Shown here: positions 12,000 through 20,883 of the stretch, in pieces
How positions within the stretch are numbered: the stretch's first letter is position 1
Layout of the letters: every line of letters begins with the position of its first letter
DNA from: Podarcis pityusensis
Lineage: Eukaryota
NCBI GenBank assembly: GCA_964106645.2
Contig: OZ067047.1
Reading direction: 5' to 3' (one strand)
Length of the DNA: 64,000 nucleotides
Notes under the pieces: model-generated
Databases searched by the model: none
What the model was told of the DNA's origin: nothing
What the model saw: the letters and a program-made list of their open reading frames with translations, nothing else
Made by a program: the position numbers and the translations under genes

Positions 12000-12048
12000 G
12001 GACTTCAATTCGCTTTCCAAGGACAATGTATACGAGAACAATCGCTTG
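12000..12048 (+). CDS. MICALL1: MICALL1 coding exon 2
   Basis: tttcag| DFNSLSKDNVYENNRL |gtgagt; 49 nt. Confidence 0.95.
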
Positions 12049-12989
12049 GTGAGTCCCTGCCTCTGTCTTCTCTCTTGATTACTTCACTTAATTCTGACGC
12101 CATTCTGGCTTACAGCAGGTTTTGAAAAAATCCCAGGTGCCTGGTTGCCCAGGTGTCTAGAAAATACGATGCTGGTACTCAGATATTTTGGCAGAGGGGA
12201 TTATCCCTCTTATCTCTTCCTACCTAAATATAAATATGTTGATATCCAGCGAGTGAAGATATTGAAGTATAAATAAATATAAATAGTCATTAATTAATAA
12301 TGACTATAGAATCACCCAAAAGATCATCTGCTGTGCCCACCAGGATGATCTTGTGTGCTCCTGTTTTTGTGTTCTTCTAAGTACCCAGGTTCTGCAATTC
12401 ACTCTCTTGCAAATTCCAAATGTTCAATCTATATAAAGAAATGAGGATGTTCCCTTTTCATCTGATGAATGTGAACTGCCTTGTCCAGTAACTACCAGCT
12501 TTTGCTTCTGGAAAGTGTTGGACCTTCAGTTTTCTGTAAAGTTTAAACGGATGTGTGCAAGGCATGTGGACCAAAGTTTTGGATCGTGAGCTGCTTAATG
12601 TTTCTGGGATAGAGATGGGCCTGGCAAGGGGAATTGGTTTGTATAGGAAAAGGAGCAGAAATGAAACTGAAAGCAGCCAGTACTGAAAAGAAGGAAGAAT
12701 GTGTTCACTTAGGCAGTTTGTATGATTTTATCTCAGATTAATAAGCTGAAATCGAATTAGACTTTTGGCTGCACACACAGACTCTTGGATCCTTTCTTCC
12801 TTGTACAAACAATCAAACCGTTAGCTGTAGTTTCCCATTTTGTCTGAACTAGGAAACTATGGTTAATAGCTTCAGAACAAGCTGGAATTATGAAACCTTT
12901 TGGCTAAGTTTTAATCAGTGTAGAGCCATGGAATTTAATGAACATTACTAACTAAGTTGGTGAGGGACAGAAGGGGCTTGGCAACCTGG

Positions 12990-13343
12990 GAAGGCAACCC
13001 ATCTAGGAAGAGGGAAACTCTAATCCTAAACCTCTGCTGTTTTGTGGGATATCTTTGGGAGGAGAAAAAGCTAAGGAGTAAACCCTAGACAAATCTGGAG
13101 TCCCCAAGACGGTTGGATGGTGCCTTTTACACCTCCTTCTGGCAACTCCTGCAGCCAAGCTGGTACCAAACATATTGCTCTGCTTTCCTTTGGACCACAT
13201 CAGCGAGGCCAAGAGGGGGTTTTGTTGCCTGGGCAGTCCAGGACCTCCAGACATACTGCCCAGGTTTGTGTCCCAGGGAGAACATTTCGGTGCTGCTAAC
13301 ACAGCAGTTTGGTTTTACCCTTGGAGGAACACTCCATTGTCTC
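12990..13343 (+). mobile_element. Degraded RTE-type LINE 5' region into which the Gypsy element inserted (continues briefly after 18839)
   Basis: aaggcaacccatctaggaagagggaaactc...aaacc resembles RTE-clade 5' sequence as I recall it; not database-checked. Confidence 0.45.
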
Positions 13344-13751
13344 TGTGATGGGACGATGAGCTGCTTGTGTGTAAAATCCTAGTCCCTCAGAGTTTGGTCA
13401 AGTTTGCAAACCTCTGTCTGTAACGGAGCCCCTTAAACATGGCTCCGTCAGTCGCTGGCAGTTTCCGACAGTGGTTGCTTTCGGAATCGCTTCCAACATA
13501 AAAGCTCCTTAACGGAAACACGTCTTCTGGACTCTCTGCGTGACAGTTTCCGGCGAGGAGTGGGTGTCCCTACAGGAGGTCCTGAAACCTCCCCACTGTT
13601 TTCGCTGGAAGTGTCTCTGAGCCATCCCTCCAGCTCCCTTTCCCTCAGCCCAGCTCCTCTCCCCCTACTGGTTCCCTCTTCAGCTGCTGAGTCTCTCCCA
13701 ACCTGTGTGAGCCCTTTCACTTCCCTTCCTTCCGATGGCAGTTCCCTGACA
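13344..13751 (-). repeat. 3' LTR of the Gypsy element (408 bp)
   Basis: Direct repeat of 18427-18834; preceded on the element strand by a polypurine tract GGAGGGGAGGTGGA (13752-13765). Confidence 0.97.
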
Positions 13752-16700
13752 TCCACCTCCCCTCCAGGGCCCCCTTCATCCCCTCTCGCCCCCTCCTCTA
13801 CGGGCGGTGAGGAGGCAAAACCCCGGAATGAACTTCCTTCATCTTCCGATGTCCCGAACACTTCTCTCCACCTGTTGCGGTTCCTGGTCTCGAAGTACTC
13901 CTCCTCCTCAGAGTCCATCTCCCCTTCCCCTTCCGATTCCGAGAATCCTTCCAACTCCTCCTCCTCATCGGTGGTCCCAAAGTATTCCCTCCGGAACCTC
14001 TCCACAGGCTGAGGTTTCCTTGGGAACCTTTGATGGAACGTTTCTATCAATACCTCGTCATTGATATCTTCTGCCATTACCCAAGTGTTTTCTGACTCCG
14101 GTTCTCCTTCCCACGCTACCAAATACTCCACCTGATCCCCCTTCCATCTGGCGTCGAGGATTTCTGCCACATGGCTGCTGCATTCCCTTTCTTCTATGAC
14201 CGGTCCCCGAGTGGTCATCCCTTCTCGTCCCCCCTCATACGGTGACAGTAACGACCTGTGAAATACTGGGTGCAGTTTCATGTGGTTGGGTAACCGGAGC
14301 CTGAAAGCCACTGGGTTGACCTGTTGAATGACCTCAAAGGGACCCAATCTCCTGGGTCTTAATTTCTTACAACCTCCTTTGAACGGCAACCCTTGGGTTG
14401 ACAGCCACACCCTATCTCCCACCCTTATGGTTTCACCTTCCCTTCGGTTCTTGTCTGCCTGCCTCTTGTATTCTTCCTTCGCCCTTTCTAAGTTGAGTTG
14501 GAGCTGACGATGGATTGCTTCCATTTCTTCTACAAAATGCTCGGCTGCCGGAACACCCCATCTCTCCCCTTCTCCCCCTGGGAAAGCCCTGGGATGACAC
14601 CCATAATTAGCCAAGAAGGGGCTCATCCCTGTGGACACATTCTCGGCATTGTTGTAGGCAAATTCCGCCAGCGCCAACTTTTCTACCCAGTCATTCTCTC
14701 TGTCATTGACATAACACCTCAGGTATTGCTGGAGGACCCCGTTTGCTCTTTCCGCCTGCCCGTTGGTTTCAGGGTGCCGGGCAGTCGAAAAGTTGACCTC
14801 CACCTGCAGTAAGCTCATGAGCTTCCTCCAGAACCTGGAAGTAAATTGTTTTCCTCGGTCTGAGACCACCCTCAATGGCACCCCGTGCAACCTAAAAATG
14901 TGTTCTACAAATAACTTCGCTGTCTCTTCCGCCGTGACTGCATGCGAGCAGGCTACAAAGTGGCACATCTTTGTTAGTAGGTCTACCACCACCATGATGG
15001 CTGTTTTCCCCTTGGACTTCGGCAGATCAGTCATAAAATCTATCGACACTGCCTCCCAAGGTCGTTCTGGGGTTGGTAAGGGTTCTAATAGCCCCGCCGG
15101 TGCCCGCCTCTCCCCTTTGGCTCGCTGGCATTGCTCACACCCTCTTACATACTCCCGTACATCTTCCCTCACCTTAGGCCACCAAAATTCCCTGGTGACC
15201 AACCACATGGTTTTGTGTTGTCCAAAATGCCCCGCCGTGGGGCTGTCGTGCAACTGCTTGAGTACCCTCCCCCTTAAGTCTCCTTCAGGGATATACAGTG
15301 CCCCTTTGTAATACAAAGCTCCATTTCTTTCCTCGAAACCCCCTGGTTCCTCTCCCTCACCCCTAAGACCTCTGAGCTTATTCTGGGCGTATTCATCATT
15401 CTCTGTTTCCTCTACCAGTTCTCTTTGTCCCACCAATGCCGCCCCACACACCCAGCGGTCCTCTGGAATGACATGTCTCTCTTCGGGTGCTCCCTCCTCC
15501 TCCAAATATTCAGGTTTGCGTGAGAGAGCGTCCGCCCTAATGTTCTCTGGGCCTGGCACGTAACAAATCTCAAAGTTAAATTTGGAGAACTCCTGGGCCC
15601 ATCTCACTTGCCGTTGGTTGAGCACTCGTGCCGTCCTCCAATACTCTAGGTTCTTGTGGTCAGTGCACACTTGCACCTTATGTTGTGCGCCAATTAGCAG
15701 GTGCCTCCATCTCCGGAACGCCTCATGAATGGCTAGTAGTTCTCGGTCATACACCGTGTAGTTCCTCTCGGATTTGTTCAGCTTTCGCGAAAAAAAGGCA
15801 CACGGTCTCCACTCTGACTCCTCCTTCCCTGGCTGCAGAAGCACCGCCCCAATAGCTCTGTCTGATGCGTCAGTTTCCACTCTCATCGGTTTTTGTAAAT
15901 CCACATGCAGGAGTTGTTGTTCCGAGGCGAAGGCCCTTTTTAGTTCCTCAAATGCTCGCTCCGCCTCCTCAGTCCAAACGAACTTCTTCTTACTGCTGAG
16001 ACAGTCCGTAATGGGCGCCGTCAGGTGGGCAAAGTTTCGGATGAACTTACGATAGAAGTTCCCAAATCCTAGGAACCTCTGCACATCCTTCCTTGTTTTG
16101 GGTGTTTTCCATTCCAGCACCGCCTGGACCTTGCCGGGATCCATGGCCAATCCCTTGTCTGACAGGCGATACCCCAGGAATTCCACCTCCTTGGTATGAA
16201 ACTGACACTTCTCCAGTTTCACCCACAGCTGGTTGGCTTGCAGCCTGCTCAACACTTCTCTGACGTCTCTCACATGCTGCTCCTCATTCTCAGAATACAC
16301 CAACACGTCGTCTAAGAAGGCCACACAATTCTTGTAAAGCAAAGGCCCCAGGACGTGGTTCATAAACGATTGAAAGCACGCGGAGCCTCCTTGTAGGCCG
16401 AAGGGCATAACTAAATATTCAAATGCCCCCAAAGGGGTGAACATGGTGGTTTTCCATTCATCCCCCTTCCTTATTCGTATCAGGTTGTACGCCCCCCTTA
16501 GGTCCAGTTTAGTAAAAATCTTTCCCTTCCTGACCCTTGTCAAAATGTCGTCAATCCTGGGCATAGGGAAAGCCACTGGTTCTGACACTGCATTTAAGGC
16601 CCTGAAGTCACACACAAGCCTCGGCTTGTTCGTGTTTTTTTTATCCACAAAAAACACTGGGCTGCCCCCCACCGCCCTGGACTCTCTGATGAACCCTCTC

Positions 16701-17539
16701 TTCAGGTTCTTGTCAATGAACTCTCTTAGCTCCTGCATCTCTCTGTCTGACATGGCGTACAGCTTGCCTACAGGGAGCTGTGCCCCAGGGAGTAAATTGA
16801 TTTGACAGTCAAAGGGTCTATGCGGGGGTAATTGGTCAGCTTCCCTTTCGCTGAAGACGTCGCGGAGATCTGCGTATTGTCGTGGTACCTTCACGTTCTC
16901 CGTTACTTCAGTCCCTGCTAGGGTGGCTTGGGCCCCTGCCAAACCCTTTCCCTCTTTGCAGTGTTCTAAGCAATGTGCTGAACCAAAAGAAACCACTCTC
17001 TGATGCCAGCCCACCAGCGGATCATGTAACGCTAGCCAGCTCATCCCCAATATAATGGGAGCTCCTCCCAAGGTGGCCACATTAAACGCTATCAGTTCGG
17101 TGTGCCTTGCCACCTTCATTATCATTGGGACGGTCTGCAAGCTGACTTCTCCTCCCAACAGCTCCCTGCCATCGATCGTGGTCACCTGCAGGGGGTTGCT
17201 TAAAGGGATCGTCTGTATCTGGTGTTCAGCTGCAAACTCTTTGCTCATGAAATTGCAGGAGCTGCCTGAGTCCAACAGCGCCTTTATCTTTAGAGGGTGT
17301 CCGTTTGGCAGCTCTAGCGCCACTTCTATCACTAGGGCGGGTTTAGGAGGTTCTGGCGTGGGCACTTTCACTGCTCTTTGGCCTGGCTGCTGTGCCCCGA
17401 CGGTGGCAGCCAGGCGTTGGCTTTTACTTGCTTCGGTATTTCTTCCTCTCTTCCCTCCACAGCTCCTACCATCCCTTGCCATTCCTTCCTCTGGGGGCAG
17501 ACTCTGGCAAAGTGACCTGGCTGTTGGCAGAGATAGCAT
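13448..17539 (-). CDS. pol: Retrotransposon Pol polyprotein (aspartic protease, RT, RNase H, integrase, chromodomain, acidic/basic tail); probably entered by -1 frameshift near 17422
   Basis: ALLDSGS (PR); MPFGL and AFLDDVL (RT); ETDASD...DHKNL...ADALSR (RNase H); H-H...CEQC zinc finger, SIDF/SDRG/GQAER (DDE) and GPF (IN); YLVAWEG...NTW (chromodomain); uninterrupted ORF in the -1 frame relative to gag. Confidence 0.96.
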   Translation of the reverse strand: MLSLPTARSLCQSLPPEEGMARDGRSCGGKRGRNTEASKSQRLAATVGAQQPGQRAVKVPTPEPPKPALVIEVALELPNGHPLKIKALLDSGSSCNFMSKEFAAEHQIQTIPLSNPLQVTTIDGRELLGGEVSLQTVPMIMKVARHTELIAFNVATLGGAPIILGMSWLALHDPLVGWHQRVVSFGSAHCLEHCKEGKGLAGAQATLAGTEVTENVKVPRQYADLRDVFSEREADQLPPHRPFDCQINLLPGAQLPVGKLYAMSDREMQELREFIDKNLKRGFIRESRAVGGSPVFFVDKKNTNKPRLVCDFRALNAVSEPVAFPMPRIDDILTRVRKGKIFTKLDLRGAYNLIRIRKGDEWKTTMFTPLGAFEYLVMPFGLQGGSACFQSFMNHVLGPLLYKNCVAFLDDVLVYSENEEQHVRDVREVLSRLQANQLWVKLEKCQFHTKEVEFLGYRLSDKGLAMDPGKVQAVLEWKTPKTRKDVQRFLGFGNFYRKFIRNFAHLTAPITDCLSSKKKFVWTEEAERAFEELKRAFASEQQLLHVDLQKPMRVETDASDRAIGAVLLQPGKEESEWRPCAFFSRKLNKSERNYTVYDRELLAIHEAFRRWRHLLIGAQHKVQVCTDHKNLEYWRTARVLNQRQVRWAQEFSKFNFEICYVPGPENIRADALSRKPEYLEEEGAPEERHVIPEDRWVCGAALVGQRELVEETENDEYAQNKLRGLRGEGEEPGGFEERNGALYYKGALYIPEGDLRGRVLKQLHDSPTAGHFGQHKTMWLVTREFWWPKVREDVREYVRGCEQCQRAKGERRAPAGLLEPLPTPERPWEAVSIDFMTDLPKSKGKTAIMVVVDLLTKMCHFVACSHAVTAEETAKLFVEHIFRLHGVPLRVVSDRGKQFTSRFWRKLMSLLQVEVNFSTARHPETNGQAERANGVLQQYLRCYVNDRENDWVEKLALAEFAYNNAENVSTGMSPFLANYGCHPRAFPGGEGERWGVPAAEHFVEEMEAIHRQLQLNLERAKEEYKRQADKNRREGETIRVGDRVWLSTQGLPFKGGCKKLRPRRLGPFEVIQQVNPVAFRLRLPNHMKLHPVFHRSLLSPYEGGREGMTTRGPVIEERECSSHVAEILDARWKGDQVEYLVAWEGEPESENTWVMAEDINDEVLIETFHQRFPRKPQPVERFRREYFGTTDEEEELEGFSESEGEGEMDSEEEEYFETRNRNRWREVFGTSEDEGSSFRGFASSPPVEEGARGDEGGPGGEVDVRELPSEGREVKGLTQVGRDSAAEEGTSRGRGAGLRERELEGWLRDTSSENSGEVSGPPVGTPTPRRKLSRRESRRRVSVKELLCWKRFRKQPLSETASD

Positions 17540-18381
17540 TTCCGGGCGCCTTTTCCCTCCTTCTTTCCCCCCTCACTGGGCTTTGAAACTGCGCGCGCGC
17601 GCGCTGTTCCGATTTCCATCGGCTCTGCCGGCGGGAAAGTTGGCTCTGGAATGTCTGGAATGCGGAACTCCTTCCAACGTTCCCCCTTCCCTTCCCGCCT
17701 CTCCAATGCTCTCGCCTCCTGGCGCGCTCCTATGGTCAGCGCTGATTTGGTCAGCTGGTCCATAGACTCCGCCCTGGGCGCCCGGGAAAGTTCGTCTTTC
17801 ACAGCCGAAGAAAGCCCTTCTTCAAAGAGCATTTGAATGGGTTCCGCCGATAGATCCCACCCCAATTTATGGATCAACATGGTGAATTCAGTCCAGTACT
17901 CACGGACAGATCGGCTCCCCTGTTTGCAAGCCATTAACTGTCTGCGGACCACTCCCTGTTCAATATCGCTGGAAAACATCAGATCCATGGCGCGAAAGAA
18001 CTTCATCGTGTCCTTTAGGACGTCACTATTCGCTGCCATCAGGGGTCTAACCCAGTCTCTCGCCCCCTTTTCAAGATGCCCAATCACGAAAGCCACTCGT
18101 GATTCCTCGTCAGGGAATTCATCAAACTGCAGATTGAGGGCATATTGCATCTCTGTCCGAAAGCCATGATAGTCTTTGGGCTCCCCCCCAAACTTCTGCA
18201 CCAATCCTGGTACCTTTCTGACGAGCTGGGTGTCTTTCCCCTTTTTGTCTGCATCCTGAGCCCTCCTCTCCTCAAGCCTCGCCGTCTGCAGCGCTAGCTG
18301 GACCTCCAACACCCGGTACCTTTCTTCCAGGCTTGGACCCGCTCCAGCTCCTGCTTCTCCGGTTCCGGCTGGGTTGCTCAT
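17368..18381 (-). CDS. gag: Retrotransposon Gag (capsid-like domain plus CCHC zinc knuckle), 337 aa
   Basis: Retrotransposon gag motifs (QGSRSVREYWTEF, FEEGLSSAVKDEL, EPMEIG) and CYLCQQPGHFARVC = CX2CX4HX4C. Confidence 0.95.
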   Translation of the reverse strand: MSNPAGTGEAGAGAGPSLEERYRVLEVQLALQTARLEERRAQDADKKGKDTQLVRKVPGLVQKFGGEPKDYHGFRTEMQYALNLQFDEFPDEESRVAFVIGHLEKGARDWVRPLMAANSDVLKDTMKFFRAMDLMFSSDIEQGVVRRQLMACKQGSRSVREYWTEFTMLIHKLGWDLSAEPIQMLFEEGLSSAVKDELSRAPRAESMDQLTKSALTIGARQEARALERREGKGERWKEFRIPDIPEPTFPPAEPMEIGTARARAVSKPSEGGKKEGKGARKCYLCQQPGHFARVCPQRKEWQGMVGAVEGREEEIPKQVKANAWLPPSGHSSQAKEQ

Positions 18382-18426
18382 GATGCCTTCTCCTGCACAA
18401 GCTGCTCACGAAGACTGTCGGAATGC

Positions 18427-18834
18427 TGTGATGGGACGATGAGCTGCTTGTGTGTAAAATCCTAGTCCCTCAGAGTTTGGTCAAGTTTGCAAACCTCTGT
18501 CTGTAACGGAGCCCCTTAAACATGGCTCCGTCAGTCGCTGGCAGTTTCCGACAGTGGTTGCTTTCGGAATCGCTTCCAACATAAAAGCTCCTTAACGGAA
18601 ACACGTCTTCTGGACTCTCTGCGTGACAGTTTCCGGCGAGGAGTGGGTGTCCCTACAGGAGGTCCTGAAACCTCCCCACTGTTTTCGCTGGAAGTGTCTC
18701 TGAGCCATCCCTCCAGCTCCCTTTCCCTCAGCCCAGCTCCTCTCCCCCTACTGGTTCCCTCTTCAGCTGCTGAGTCTCTCCCAACCTGTGTGAGCCCTTT
18801 CACTTCCCTTCCTTCCGATGGCAGTTCCCTGACA
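18427..18834 (-). repeat. 5' LTR of the Gypsy element (408 bp)
   Basis: tgtgatggg...ccctgaca; no difference from the other LTR seen on visual comparison. Confidence 0.97.
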
Positions 18835-20208
18835 GTCTCTCTAGACAGACTGATGCTGAAAACTAAGTTAGGTCCAATAACTTAGCTCAATACCACCCAT
18901 AGTTTGAAACTAGATGTAAATTGAAGACTTCCTGATATGTGAAGGATGGGGCAAAGGCCCCAAAGACTCTCCTCCTCTCCTCATTTATTTGTTATTTATT
19001 AATGTCATATGCCACCATTCCTCCCAAAGGAGGCTGTGACTTATTAAGATGAGATATGGCCATCTGAATGTGGTCAGTGTACAGCTCTATCCTTACTCAA
19101 ACAGACTGAATAAAACTAGTTGCAACCAGACTGTATTTGTTAGAAACTCTCTTCCCCGCCCCCCGCCACTCTGTTCCTTAAAAAAAGAAATCAAGTTCAG
19201 ATTTCCAGGGTAGCATATGAGATTCCACATTTGCACAGCAAACTTGCAGACCCAAATATGCAGCCCAGCATGATGGACTTGCCATGACAGTGGAGGAATG
19301 TGCTTAGATTTCTCTTTGTGGCCTGCCAGTGATACCAAGCAAGTGTAAATAATAATCTCAGCTGGGCAAACAAGCGTTGATGTAATTGCAGACTTCTGCT
19401 GGAGATGGGCTGGTTCTGACATAATCCTTTGTGGTTCCATTCTGGAAAACGCCAGAGCAAACCATATGTACCGTACAAATGTTCAGGCATACTTAGTCAA
19501 GAGTGCCTTTATTGAAGTTTTGCCTTTATGTTTCCCTTGGCACTAAAGTCATGGTACCAGGCTTTCTTACCGTGTTTAAATTCCCAGCCCAAGACCAAAT
19601 GGAACCAAGCAGAAGTTTTCAAGTTTGATCCCTGGTATCTCCAGGTAGCACTAGGAGAGACTGAAATCCTTGAGAGCCACTGCCTGTGAGCATAGACCAT
19701 TCTGAGCTAGAGGGACTTATGGTCTGATTCAGTATAAAACAGATTCCTAGGTTCCTACTGCTGTGGTGGGCAGATCTCCCATTTCTGTGTGACTGGTGTT
19801 TGTTTAATACAGTATGCATCTCTTCCTAGTGTTTTGTTCAGTGTTGTTGTCTTATGTTTTATATTGATTGCAAACACTTTGAACACATATTTCTGGGGGG
19901 GGGGGGCGGAATGGGAGAAAGCAATTTTAAGCAAACAAATAAATAAAATATACTCCTCACAATATGATTTATGCTTTATATTTGATAAGCGCCAACATTC
20001 TCAAACTGAGGGAGAGAGCCTCAAGGTCTGTGGTGCAGCTGAGAATTGGTCAGAGTCCAAATTCTGACTAATGGGCCATGCTGGAAGCAAATATAGCGTC
20101 GTCATCTCTATTCTGCTTCATTCTCTGTCCCTGAGCAATTGCTAATGACTGGAGAAATTCACATACCCTGGCAGGGGCACTTCTATTGCCACTAACTTCT
20201 TCCCAATT

Positions 20209-20211
<3 letters not shown>

Positions 20212-20272
<61 letters not shown>
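20212..20272. repeat. Compound (GT)n(AT)n(AG)n microsatellite
   Basis: Directly visible. Confidence 0.95.
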
Positions 20273-20273
<1 letters not shown>

Positions 20274-20741
20274 TTTTTTGGGGGGGGGAGGGGGGTGTTA
20301 AACTAAAATGGTGGAAAGGATCATTGGACCCTTGCTGAAATTTCAGAGGTGTACAATAAAAAAGCTCTGCTGGTTCAGGCCAAAGGCCCACCTCTTCTGG
20401 CACCCGATGCCCATGGGAAGCCCGAAAGCAGACCTGAGCACAACAACACTCTCCCAACCTGTGATCCCCGACAACTTGTGATCCCCTGGCATTCAGAGGC
20501 ATGCTGCATCTGACAGTGGAGGCAAAACATAGTCATTGTGACTGGTAGCAATGCCAATGGAAAGAGGTGGTATGAGTGGCCAAGGTCCCAATATGTGTCA
20601 TCTTCCTTATTAGTTCCTTCTGTACTGCAAGTTTCTACTTGGCGACTTCTGCCCTTATTTTGTTCCACCAGTGGTGCGTGCCTGTCTCTTTCTCAGAGTC
20701 AGCTTCCGCTTCCTGATTGTCTTCTCTTTGTTGCCTTTCAG

Positions 20742-20883
20742 GCCTTTGAGGTGGCTGAGCAAGAGCTGGGGATCCCTGCCCTGCTGGATCCCAGTGACAT
20801 GGTCTCCATGAAGGTCCCTGACTGCCTCAGCATCATGACCTATGTCTCTCAGTATTACAACCATTTCAACAACCCCAACCAAG
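20742..20883 (+). CDS. MICALL1: MICALL1 coding exon 3 (CH domain end)
   Basis: tttcag| [42 protein letters not shown] |gtgaga. Confidence 0.95.

What the first reader, a model, noticed from the sequence alone, without database searches (positions are those of the whole stretch)
13817..14000. Gypsy integrase tail carries two tandem LEDGF-IBD/TFIIS-N-domain-interacting-like motifs: candidate host-mimicry integration-targeting system
Seen: directly after the chromodomain, Pol contains two similar units, RFRREYFGTTDEEEELEGFSES and RWREVFGTSEDEGSSFRGFASS. Each is a short R-[F/W]...F helix, then GT[T/S], an acidic run with CK2-type S/T-D/E sites, and [L/F]xGF. Established: a short helix plus a phosphorylatable acidic linker plus FxGF is the motif by which MLL1, JPO2/CDCA7L, IWS1 and the domesticated transposase POGZ bind the integrase-binding domain (IBD) of LEDGF/p75 and related TFIIS N-terminal domains (TNDs). 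LEDGF/HRP2 read H3K36-methylated transcribed chromatin and tether lentiviral integration there, although HIV integrase uses a different binding surface. Inference: this vertebrate retrotransposon may have evolved the cellular linear motif to hitch onto elongation-associated TND proteins and integrate into active gene bodies. This copy sits in an intron of an intact gene, which fits but is a single case. I know of no description of this for a Gypsy element, but cannot search the literature.
Basis: partly seen in the sequence, partly recalled or inferred. Interest (0 to 1): 0.85.

Follow-up and report, generated by a model that had tools for sequence, protein, structure and literature searches.

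The report
Lizard retrotransposon mimics LEDGF-binding motif
A very active lizard jumping gene carries, on the tail of its integrase, two conserved short motifs built like those that host proteins use to dock on the chromatin reader LEDGF (the protein HIV uses to reach genes); they likely tether the element to chromatin, but binding is untested and its copies show no clear preference for genes.

Summary
Both units lie in frame directly after the chromodomain of an intact, very young Ty3/Gypsy element (identical LTRs, 1365 exact junction matches in the genome; host inferred to be a lacertid lizard). They are under purifying selection (pN/pS 0.05 and 0.20). They persist across one clade of lacertid elements down to about 44% identity: 18 of 19 clade members carry the motif, 0 of 153 other chromoviruses do. 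They share spacing and grammar with this lizard's own CDCA7L/JPO2 and CDCA7 motifs. Unit 1 is LxGF here but canonical FxGF in older sister families. New: no clade member keeps the complete methyl-lysine cage of the chromodomain (146 of 153 outside do). LEDGF/HRP2 binding is therefore a good inference (~0.7) but unshown. The gene-body-targeting half is not supported: copies are spaced at random along C1, not enriched on small autosomes, sixfold enriched on C19 (likely W), and host exons flank 8 of 60 copies versus 5 of 56 control sites. No prior description was found in the searches run. Verdict: a real, conserved motif; a new variant of integrase-tail host mimicry; targeting outcome open.

The parts
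13344..18834 (-). Full-length Ty3/Gypsy chromovirus-type LTR retrotransposon with 5-bp target-site duplication (GTCTC)
18427..18834 (-). 5' LTR, 408 bp, 100% identical to the 3' LTR
13344..13751 (-). 3' LTR; Pol reads about 100 codons into it and ends in a conserved basic motif
17368..18405 (-). gag frame (Retrotrans_gag, Ty3_capsid, zinc knuckle)
13448..17572 (-). pol frame, 1374 codons: protease, RT, RNase H, integrase, SH3, chromodomain, disordered tail
14027..14170 (-). Chromodomain (Pol 1135-1182) lacking aromatic-cage residues 1 and 3
13934..13999 (-). Unit 1: predicted helix, F, 8-residue acidic S/T linker, LEGF (FxGF in older sister families)
13808..13873 (-). Unit 2: W-x-x-V-F, 9-residue acidic S/T linker, FRGF
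13752..13765 (-). Polypurine tract, in frame within Pol
12000..20880 (+). Host MICAL-like (CH+LIM) gene: exon 2 (~12000-12048) and exon 3 (from 20741) flank the insertion; the gene name is my reading of the domains

Best explanation
[quoted passage not shown] Shown: the motifs, their conservation and selection, the match to host motif grammar, loss of the chromodomain cage in the same clade, and the dispersed insertion pattern. Inferred: that the tail stays on mature integrase; that the helix and FxGF phenylalanines fill the two TND pockets while the acidic, likely CK2-phosphorylated linker meets the basic patch; that two units on a multimeric intasome give avidity; and that this took over from chromodomain reading of methyl-lysine.
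For: (1) Grammar: the review defines TIMs as helix + 8-16 aa acidic S/T linker + FxGF, and says FxGF marks partners of LEDGF and HRP2 (PMC9987994 sections 6 and 12). This lizard's CDCA7L carries two such motifs and CDCA7 one, with 8, 10 and 8 residues between the anchor F and FxGF; the element's units have 8 and 9. (2) Selection: against a second subfamily, pN/pS is 0.05 (unit 1) and 0.20 (unit 2), versus 0.05-0.06 for the integrase core, 0.41 for the linker before the chromodomain and 1.6 just after unit 2; the spacer is 0.16 with an 8-codon indel. These are 16-21 codons per region. (3) Depth: the x of FxGF varies (E, V, R, K, Q, L, H) while G-F and nearly always the first F stay, in proteins 44-70% identical over SH3-chromo-tail. 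In the most distant two-part relative (P0143, 51%) only unit 2 survives in an otherwise unalignable tail. 25 of 25 older sister copies keep FxGF in both units and 25 of 25 copies of a distant family keep one; these were retrieved with motif-bearing queries, which favours intact motifs. (4) One clade (SH-aLRT 99, quick tree): 18 of 19 with the motif, 0 of 19 with a full aromatic cage; outside it 0 of 153 with the motif and 146 of 153 with a full cage. (5) AlphaFold2 folds the chromodomain, puts a helix on unit 1 and leaves the rest disordered. (6) Both partner genes exist in this genome; the two LEDGF IBD exons I read match Podarcis muralis LEDGF. (7) The two-unit family lies along chromosome arms (4 of 57 within 1.5 Mb of an end), whereas the one-unit family with a non-acidic linker piles up at ends (55 of 110).
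Against: No enrichment near genes was detected. Spacing of 96 sites on C1 is Poisson-like (dispersion 0.62-0.92). Small autosomes C13-C18 hold 9 of 53 autosomal sites against 9.5 expected. C19, likely the W, holds 10 of 67 against 1.7 expected. 8-kb flanks are slightly poorer in GC than controls (0.421 vs 0.437, p=0.02). Pfam-confirmed host exons flank 8 of 60 copies versus 5 of 56 controls (p=0.56, odds ratio 1.6, 95% interval 0.4-6.5). Unit 1 of this most successful family has lost the first F of FxGF (L), P0003 has M there, P0293 has lost the G, and P0143 lacks unit 1. The distant family's linker is S/T-rich but not acidic. No helix was predicted for unit 2 alone. A profile of the units scored the host motifs only weakly (7.1 and 4.9 bits, E 4 and 19). 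Motif gain and cage loss coincide on a single branch, so this is one event, not a correlation. The family-to-family difference in chromosome position may reflect age or segmental duplication.
Confidence: 0.5

Rival explanations
1. One reading: the motifs bind LEDGF/HRP2 and steer integration specifically into transcribed gene bodies, as for lentiviruses, with the signal in the assembly eroded by selection against intronic copies.
For: Same motif evidence. The window's copy is intronic. The exon test allows an odds ratio up to 6.5. Where a flanking gene was identified the element was antisense in 5, sense in 2 and unclear in 1 (strands, hits), as selection on intronic copies would leave.
Against: Random spacing on C1. 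No excess on small autosomes: a 2-fold excess would give 16 expected versus 9 seen, p=0.02; that these chromosomes are gene-denser is my background knowledge, not tested. Lower flank GC, and equal exon-like scores at four thresholds. The copies are so young that little purging is expected.
Confidence: 0.15
2. The motifs do bind a TND protein, but for something other than site choice: stabilising integrase, nuclear retention, raising integration efficiency, or recruiting elongation factors and the chaperone activity of LEDGF/HRP2 to the new copy.
For: Strong motif conservation with an almost random insertion pattern. LEDGF and HRP2 also act as histone chaperones in elongation (PMC9987994 section 12).
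Against: Position directly behind a cage-less chromodomain, where targeting modules sit in other chromoviruses (PMC3059260 passages). Different chromosome-scale patterns of the two-unit and one-unit families.
Confidence: 0.2
3. The units bind a different partner (another protein with hydrophobic pockets and a basic patch, such as a histone dimer or another chromatin factor, or the element's own chromodomain or integrase), and the likeness to TIMs is coincidental.
For: Acidic tails with aromatic residues are a common binding theme (background knowledge). Unit 1 starts within about 10 residues of the chromodomain. The distant family keeps the aromatics without the acidic linker. Weak profile scores of the host motifs.
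Against: The specific F-x-G-F end with free x and the same spacing as host CDCA7L/CDCA7 motifs, twice. The pattern is rare in background sequence.
Confidence: 0.12
4. The tail is neutral low-complexity sequence and the pattern is chance or kept for a DNA/RNA-level reason near the polypurine tract.
For: The tail is acidic and low in complexity and lies 60-250 bases from the polypurine tract.
Against: Synonymous sites in the units diverge freely (pS 0.43 and 0.57) while amino acids are kept. The motif survives where flanking residues do not (P0143).
Confidence: 0.03

Closest known systems
Cellular LEDGF/HRP2 TND-interacting motifs (JPO2/CDCA7L, KMT2A, IWS1, MED1, CDC7-ASK, DPF3a; PMC9987994 sections 6 and 12 read; POGZ, JPO2, IWS1 and KMT2A complexes listed in PDB)
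   Same: Hydrophobic helix with Phe, 8-9 residue acidic S/T linker, FxGF, disordered context; tandem pair as in the lizard's CDCA7L.
   Different: Carried by an active retroelement's integrase; binding unmeasured; unit 1 is LxGF in this family; no DNA-level sign of capture from CDCA7L or CDCA7 (16-35 of 72 bases alike), so convergence is likelier but old capture is not excluded.
Lentiviral integrase-LEDGF tethering (HIV-1, MVV)
   Same: Same proposed host domain and the same proposed step (tethering the integration complex to H3K36-methylated chromatin).
   Different: HIV integrase uses a pre-arranged folded site, not the unstructured motif (PMC10854676 passages). Lentiviral sites are biased to active gene bodies (PMC9987994 passage), which was not seen here.
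Yeast Ty5 integrase targeting domain-Sir4 and Ty1 integrase C-terminal segment-Pol III AC40/AC19
   Same: Short, phosphorylation-sensitive motif in the integrase tail that binds a host chromatin or transcription factor (PMC9673352 passages; PMC10050235 abstract start in listing).
   Different: Those are Ty1/copia elements in yeast with sharp targets; this is a vertebrate Ty3/Gypsy element with a different motif and a dispersed pattern.
Chromoviruses with type II or vestigial chromodomains (plant Tekay/Reina/CRM group C; CR motif; yeast Ty3)
   Same: Loss of cage residues 1 and 3; in CRM group A the integrase also runs into the 3' LTR (PMC3059260 passages); Ty3's vestigial chromodomain binds TFIIIB non-canonically (bioRxiv 10.1101/2021.07.27.453949 passages).
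   Different: None of the passages read describes an added helix-acidic-FxGF module.

Membership tests
Ty3/Gypsy chromovirus | LTRs with target-site duplication; gag then PR-RT-RH-IN order | tested here: met
Ty3/Gypsy chromovirus | Chromodomain at the integrase C-terminus | tested here: met
   PF00385 at Pol 1135-1182, E 7e-10; folded in the model
Type I (methyl-lysine-reading) chromovirus chromodomain | All three aromatic cage residues | tested here: not met
   S/W/E at the three positions in the window's protein; 0 of 19 clade members complete
LEDGF/HRP2 TND-interacting motif | FxGF | tested here: met
   Unit 2 FRGF; unit 1 is LEGF in this family (strict form not met) but FVGF/FEGF in 25 of 25 older sister copies
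LEDGF/HRP2 TND-interacting motif | Acidic, S/T-containing linker of 8-16 residues | tested here: met
   8 and 9 residues between anchor F and FxGF; host motifs 8, 10, 8
LEDGF/HRP2 TND-interacting motif | Short alpha-helix with hydrophobic/Phe anchor | tested here: inconclusive
   Helix predicted for unit 1 (model residues 57-64, moderate confidence), none for unit 2 alone; unit 2 has the host's hydrophobic-x-x-hydrophobic-F pattern
LEDGF/HRP2 TND-interacting motif | Lies in a disordered region | tested here: met
   No secondary structure and low pLDDT after model residue 64
LEDGF/HRP2 TND-interacting motif | Binds the IBD/TND in a Phe-dependent, CK2-enhanced way | not testable with these tools
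   Needs a binding assay
Lentivirus-like LEDGF-guided integration | Insertions enriched in transcribed gene bodies and gene-dense regions | tested here: inconclusive
   No enrichment; no annotation available, odds-ratio interval 0.4-6.5

The most novel reading that the evidence does not exclude
A lacertid Ty3/Gypsy lineage swapped its targeting device: it lost the chromodomain's methyl-lysine cage and evolved (or captured) the cellular helix-acidic-FxGF motif, becoming the first retrotransposon to hitch onto LEDGF/HRP2. It would reach the lentiviral tethering factor by the host's own linear code and move from heterochromatin to H3K36-methylated chromatin, with CK2 as a switch.
Probability: 0.3. 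Interest if true: 0.85.

Novelty: new variant of a known kind. Interest (0 to 1): 0.62.

Why it matters
If true, LEDGF/HRP2 has been recruited twice by unrelated retroelements through different surfaces: a folded pocket in lentiviral integrase, and the host's own short motif here. It would be a case of a mobile element mimicking the TND-interacting motif for which I found no description. A genome with over a thousand near-identical young copies plus sister families that differ in motif number and linker charge is a natural experiment on how a linear motif replaces a chromodomain in target choice. The claim is cheap to test with 20-residue peptides.

Tried and rejected
Complex prediction of lizard LEDGF IBD (P0027 400-487) with unit 2: no answer (score 0.02, mark 0.34; alignments not used, peptides are outside what the tool was tested on). 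PDB sequence searches with the tail and with the unit profile: 0 matches up to E 10. Strand-skew proxy for being inside a gene: the signal in 8 known gene stretches was no larger than the scatter of controls, so it was dropped. DNA-level capture from CDCA7L/CDCA7: no excess similarity, saturated. Alignment A2 (22 of 33 units) was cut by the [FL]xGF pattern, so its invariant columns are circular and are not used as evidence. The careful tree did not finish; the quick tree is used, with long branches flagged near the clade, and no one-clade test was run. Three primary TIM papers were not held, so the motif definition rests on the review and on host sequences read here; their supplements may hold motif screens that I could not see. 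Earlier findings of the scan: none returned. In the exon test I dropped three transposon hits (L188, L269, L099) and one low-complexity hit (L260); counting L260 gives 8 vs 6, p=0.78.

Full report
The element. The finding lies in the pol gene of a complete Ty3/Gypsy retrotransposon on the minus strand, window 13344-18834, with two 408-bp LTRs that are 100% identical and a 5-bp target duplication. Gag is followed by a 1374-codon Pol frame with protease, RT, RNase H, integrase, SH3 and chromodomain; the frame runs through the polypurine tract and about 100 codons into the 3' LTR. The copy sits antisense in intron 2 of a CH+LIM (MICAL-like) gene. The nearest named relatives are Podarcis muralis proteins, 81-87% identical over the C-terminal region, so the host is inferred to be a lacertid lizard. 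The family is very young and large: 40 of 40 scored DNA matches were 100% identical, 150 of 150 scored protein matches were 99-100% identical, most with the same 1374-codon frame, and the tract/LTR junction occurs exactly 1365 times in 1515 Mb.

The observation. Both units are where and as described: unit 1 at 13934-13999, unit 2 at 13808-13873. A pattern of hydrophobic residue, F, 7-11 residues with at least three D/E, then [FL]xGF arose twice in 2 of 200,000 shuffles of the tail. It hit 6 times in 630,520 aa of six-frame lizard DNA: three host motifs in loci I had included on purpose, two units of another family copy and one chance hit. The pattern was written after seeing the data.

Conservation. 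Against a second subfamily in the same genome (7 copies listed), pN/pS is 0.05 in unit 1 and 0.20 in unit 2, like the integrase core (0.05-0.06) and unlike the pre-chromodomain linker (0.41) or the 20 codons after unit 2 (1.6). The spacer has an 8-codon indel and pN/pS 0.16, and synonymous sites in the units are well diverged (16-21 codons per region). Among the best 150 of 13,480 representatives, units appear in P0142 (70%, both, unit 1 with FVGF), P0160 (58%), P0143 (51%, unit 2 only, FLGF, rest of the tail unalignable) and P0149 (44%, FQGF). A profile search returned 21 proteins, of which those with units are Podarcis entries or three unnamed records (only the 8000 best candidates were scored). 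In the own genome 25 of 25 older sister copies have FxGF in both units and 25 of 25 copies of the distant family have one; the queries contained the motif, which favours such copies. Exceptions: L or M for the first F of unit 1 in the window family and P0003, a lost G in unit 1 of P0293, and no unit 1 in P0143.

One clade, with a dead cage. A quick maximum-likelihood tree of SH3+chromodomain for 171 of 184 retrieved proteins plus the window's (the rest did not cover the region) groups 19 rows at SH-aLRT 99. Eighteen carry the motif (P0148's annotated protein appears to shift frame there), and none of the 153 others does. None of the 19 has all three aromatic cage residues, 146 of the 153 do. 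Loss of cage residues 1 and 3 defines type II chromodomains (PMC3059260, passages). This is a single coincidence on one long branch.

Match to TND-interacting motifs. PMC9987994 (sections 6 and 12 read; passages) defines TIMs as helix, 8-16 residue acidic S/T linker phosphorylated by CK2, and FxGF, the last being essential for all known LEDGF and HRP2 partners. Fly JIL-1 uses the same FxGF (PMC6877644 passages). I fetched this lizard's CDCA7L and CDCA7 (the names rest on Pfam PF10497 and my reading of the exons). CDCA7L has LADIFNTPSDDEDFLGF and LREIFREDTESENEAFEGF, and CDCA7 has IAKIFYEDSDDESFCGF. The element's units have the same order of parts and F-to-F spacings of 8 and 9 against 8, 10 and 8. 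A profile of the units ranked the CDCA7 motif first among non-family hits, but at only 7.1 bits (E 4), with one CDCA7L motif 13th in the list, so the likeness is one of grammar, not of alignable sequence. DNA shows no sign of capture. AlphaFold2 gives a folded chromodomain, a helix on unit 1 and disorder beyond. PSIP1 and HDGFL2 are both present. Binding has not been shown.

Where the copies are. The first 100 junctions on C1 (96 after merging neighbours) are Poisson-spaced at the genome-average density. A genome-wide sample of 67 LTR ends, picked by two flanking bases, shows no excess on small autosomes (9 vs 9.5) and a sixfold excess on C19, likely the W. Sixty one-sided 8-kb flanks and 56 control stretches on C1 differ slightly in GC (0.421 vs 0.437) and not in exon-like scores. 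Of 299 top exon candidates sent to Pfam, host-gene hits marked 8 of 60 flanks and 5 of 56 controls (p=0.56, odds ratio 1.6, interval 0.4-6.5). So a strong lentivirus-like bias is not seen, a moderate one is not excluded, and the intronic position of this copy is uninformative. The window family avoids no region but W-like C19 is favoured; 4 of 57 lie near chromosome ends against 55 of 110 for the one-unit family and 16 of 102 for the older two-unit copies, a contrast that age or duplication could also produce.

Mechanism. Most likely the tail stays on integrase and presents two TIM-like units. These would dock on the LEDGF/HRP2 IBD, whose PWWP domain reads H3K36me2/3, holding the integration complex on broadly methylated chromatin; the cage-less chromodomain would no longer read methyl-lysine. 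I put true LEDGF/HRP2 binding at about 0.7 and this whole mechanism at 0.5. The rivals are sharp gene-body targeting (0.15), TND binding for a non-targeting purpose (0.2), another partner (0.12) and chance (0.03).

Novelty. Integrase-tail motifs that bind host factors are known (Ty5-Sir4, Ty1-Pol III), and LEDGF tethering is known for lentiviruses, by a folded surface. Nine full-text searches, judged from listings and abstract starts except for the papers named above, showed no report of a TIM/FxGF motif in a retrotransposon; subscription papers and three primary TIM papers were not available. I file it as a new variant of a known kind, interest 0.62.

Noticed in passing
window 13448-13530 (minus strand, inside the 3' LTR): Pol ends in a third conserved motif, a basic stretch around LLCW (RRRVSVKELLCWKRFRKQPL in this copy). 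It is kept in the sister families read and in P0142 and P0143, where flanking sequence is not. It could be a nuclear-localisation or nucleosome-binding signal, or an LTR DNA constraint.
   Followed up: partly
G000 contig C19 (38 Mb): All three families accumulate here: 10 of 67, 30 of 150 and 48 of 150 listed copies; likely the W chromosome (inferred, not tested).
   Followed up: partly
L142-L166 and one search list: A distant sister family (one unit, S/T-rich non-acidic linker, chromodomain without the cage Trp) clusters within 1.5 Mb of chromosome ends (55 of 110) and on small unplaced contigs (10 of 150).
   Followed up: partly
3' flanks of L002-L063: Target-site preference: the second and third bases after the 5-bp duplication are A/T in 53 and 54 of 57 flanks.
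   Followed up: no
L097/L098 versus window Pol: The second subfamily is nearly identical to the window family in RT-RNase H (pS 0.02) but diverged in integrase and tail (pS about 0.4): a recombinant between subfamilies.
   Followed up: no
L171 (host CDCA7): Lizard CDCA7, not only CDCA7L, carries a helix-acidic-FxGF motif; CDCA7 is not among the LEDGF/HRP2 partners in the review section read.
   Followed up: no
L188:131-1069: A copy of the family sits next to, probably inside, another chromovirus, whose chromodomain keeps cage residues 2 and 3 in the part seen.
   Followed up: no
G000 C1 near 1.79 Mb and 88.63 Mb: Junction matches 5083 bases apart, the element's LTR-to-LTR distance, suggest tandem copies sharing an LTR.
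   Followed up: no
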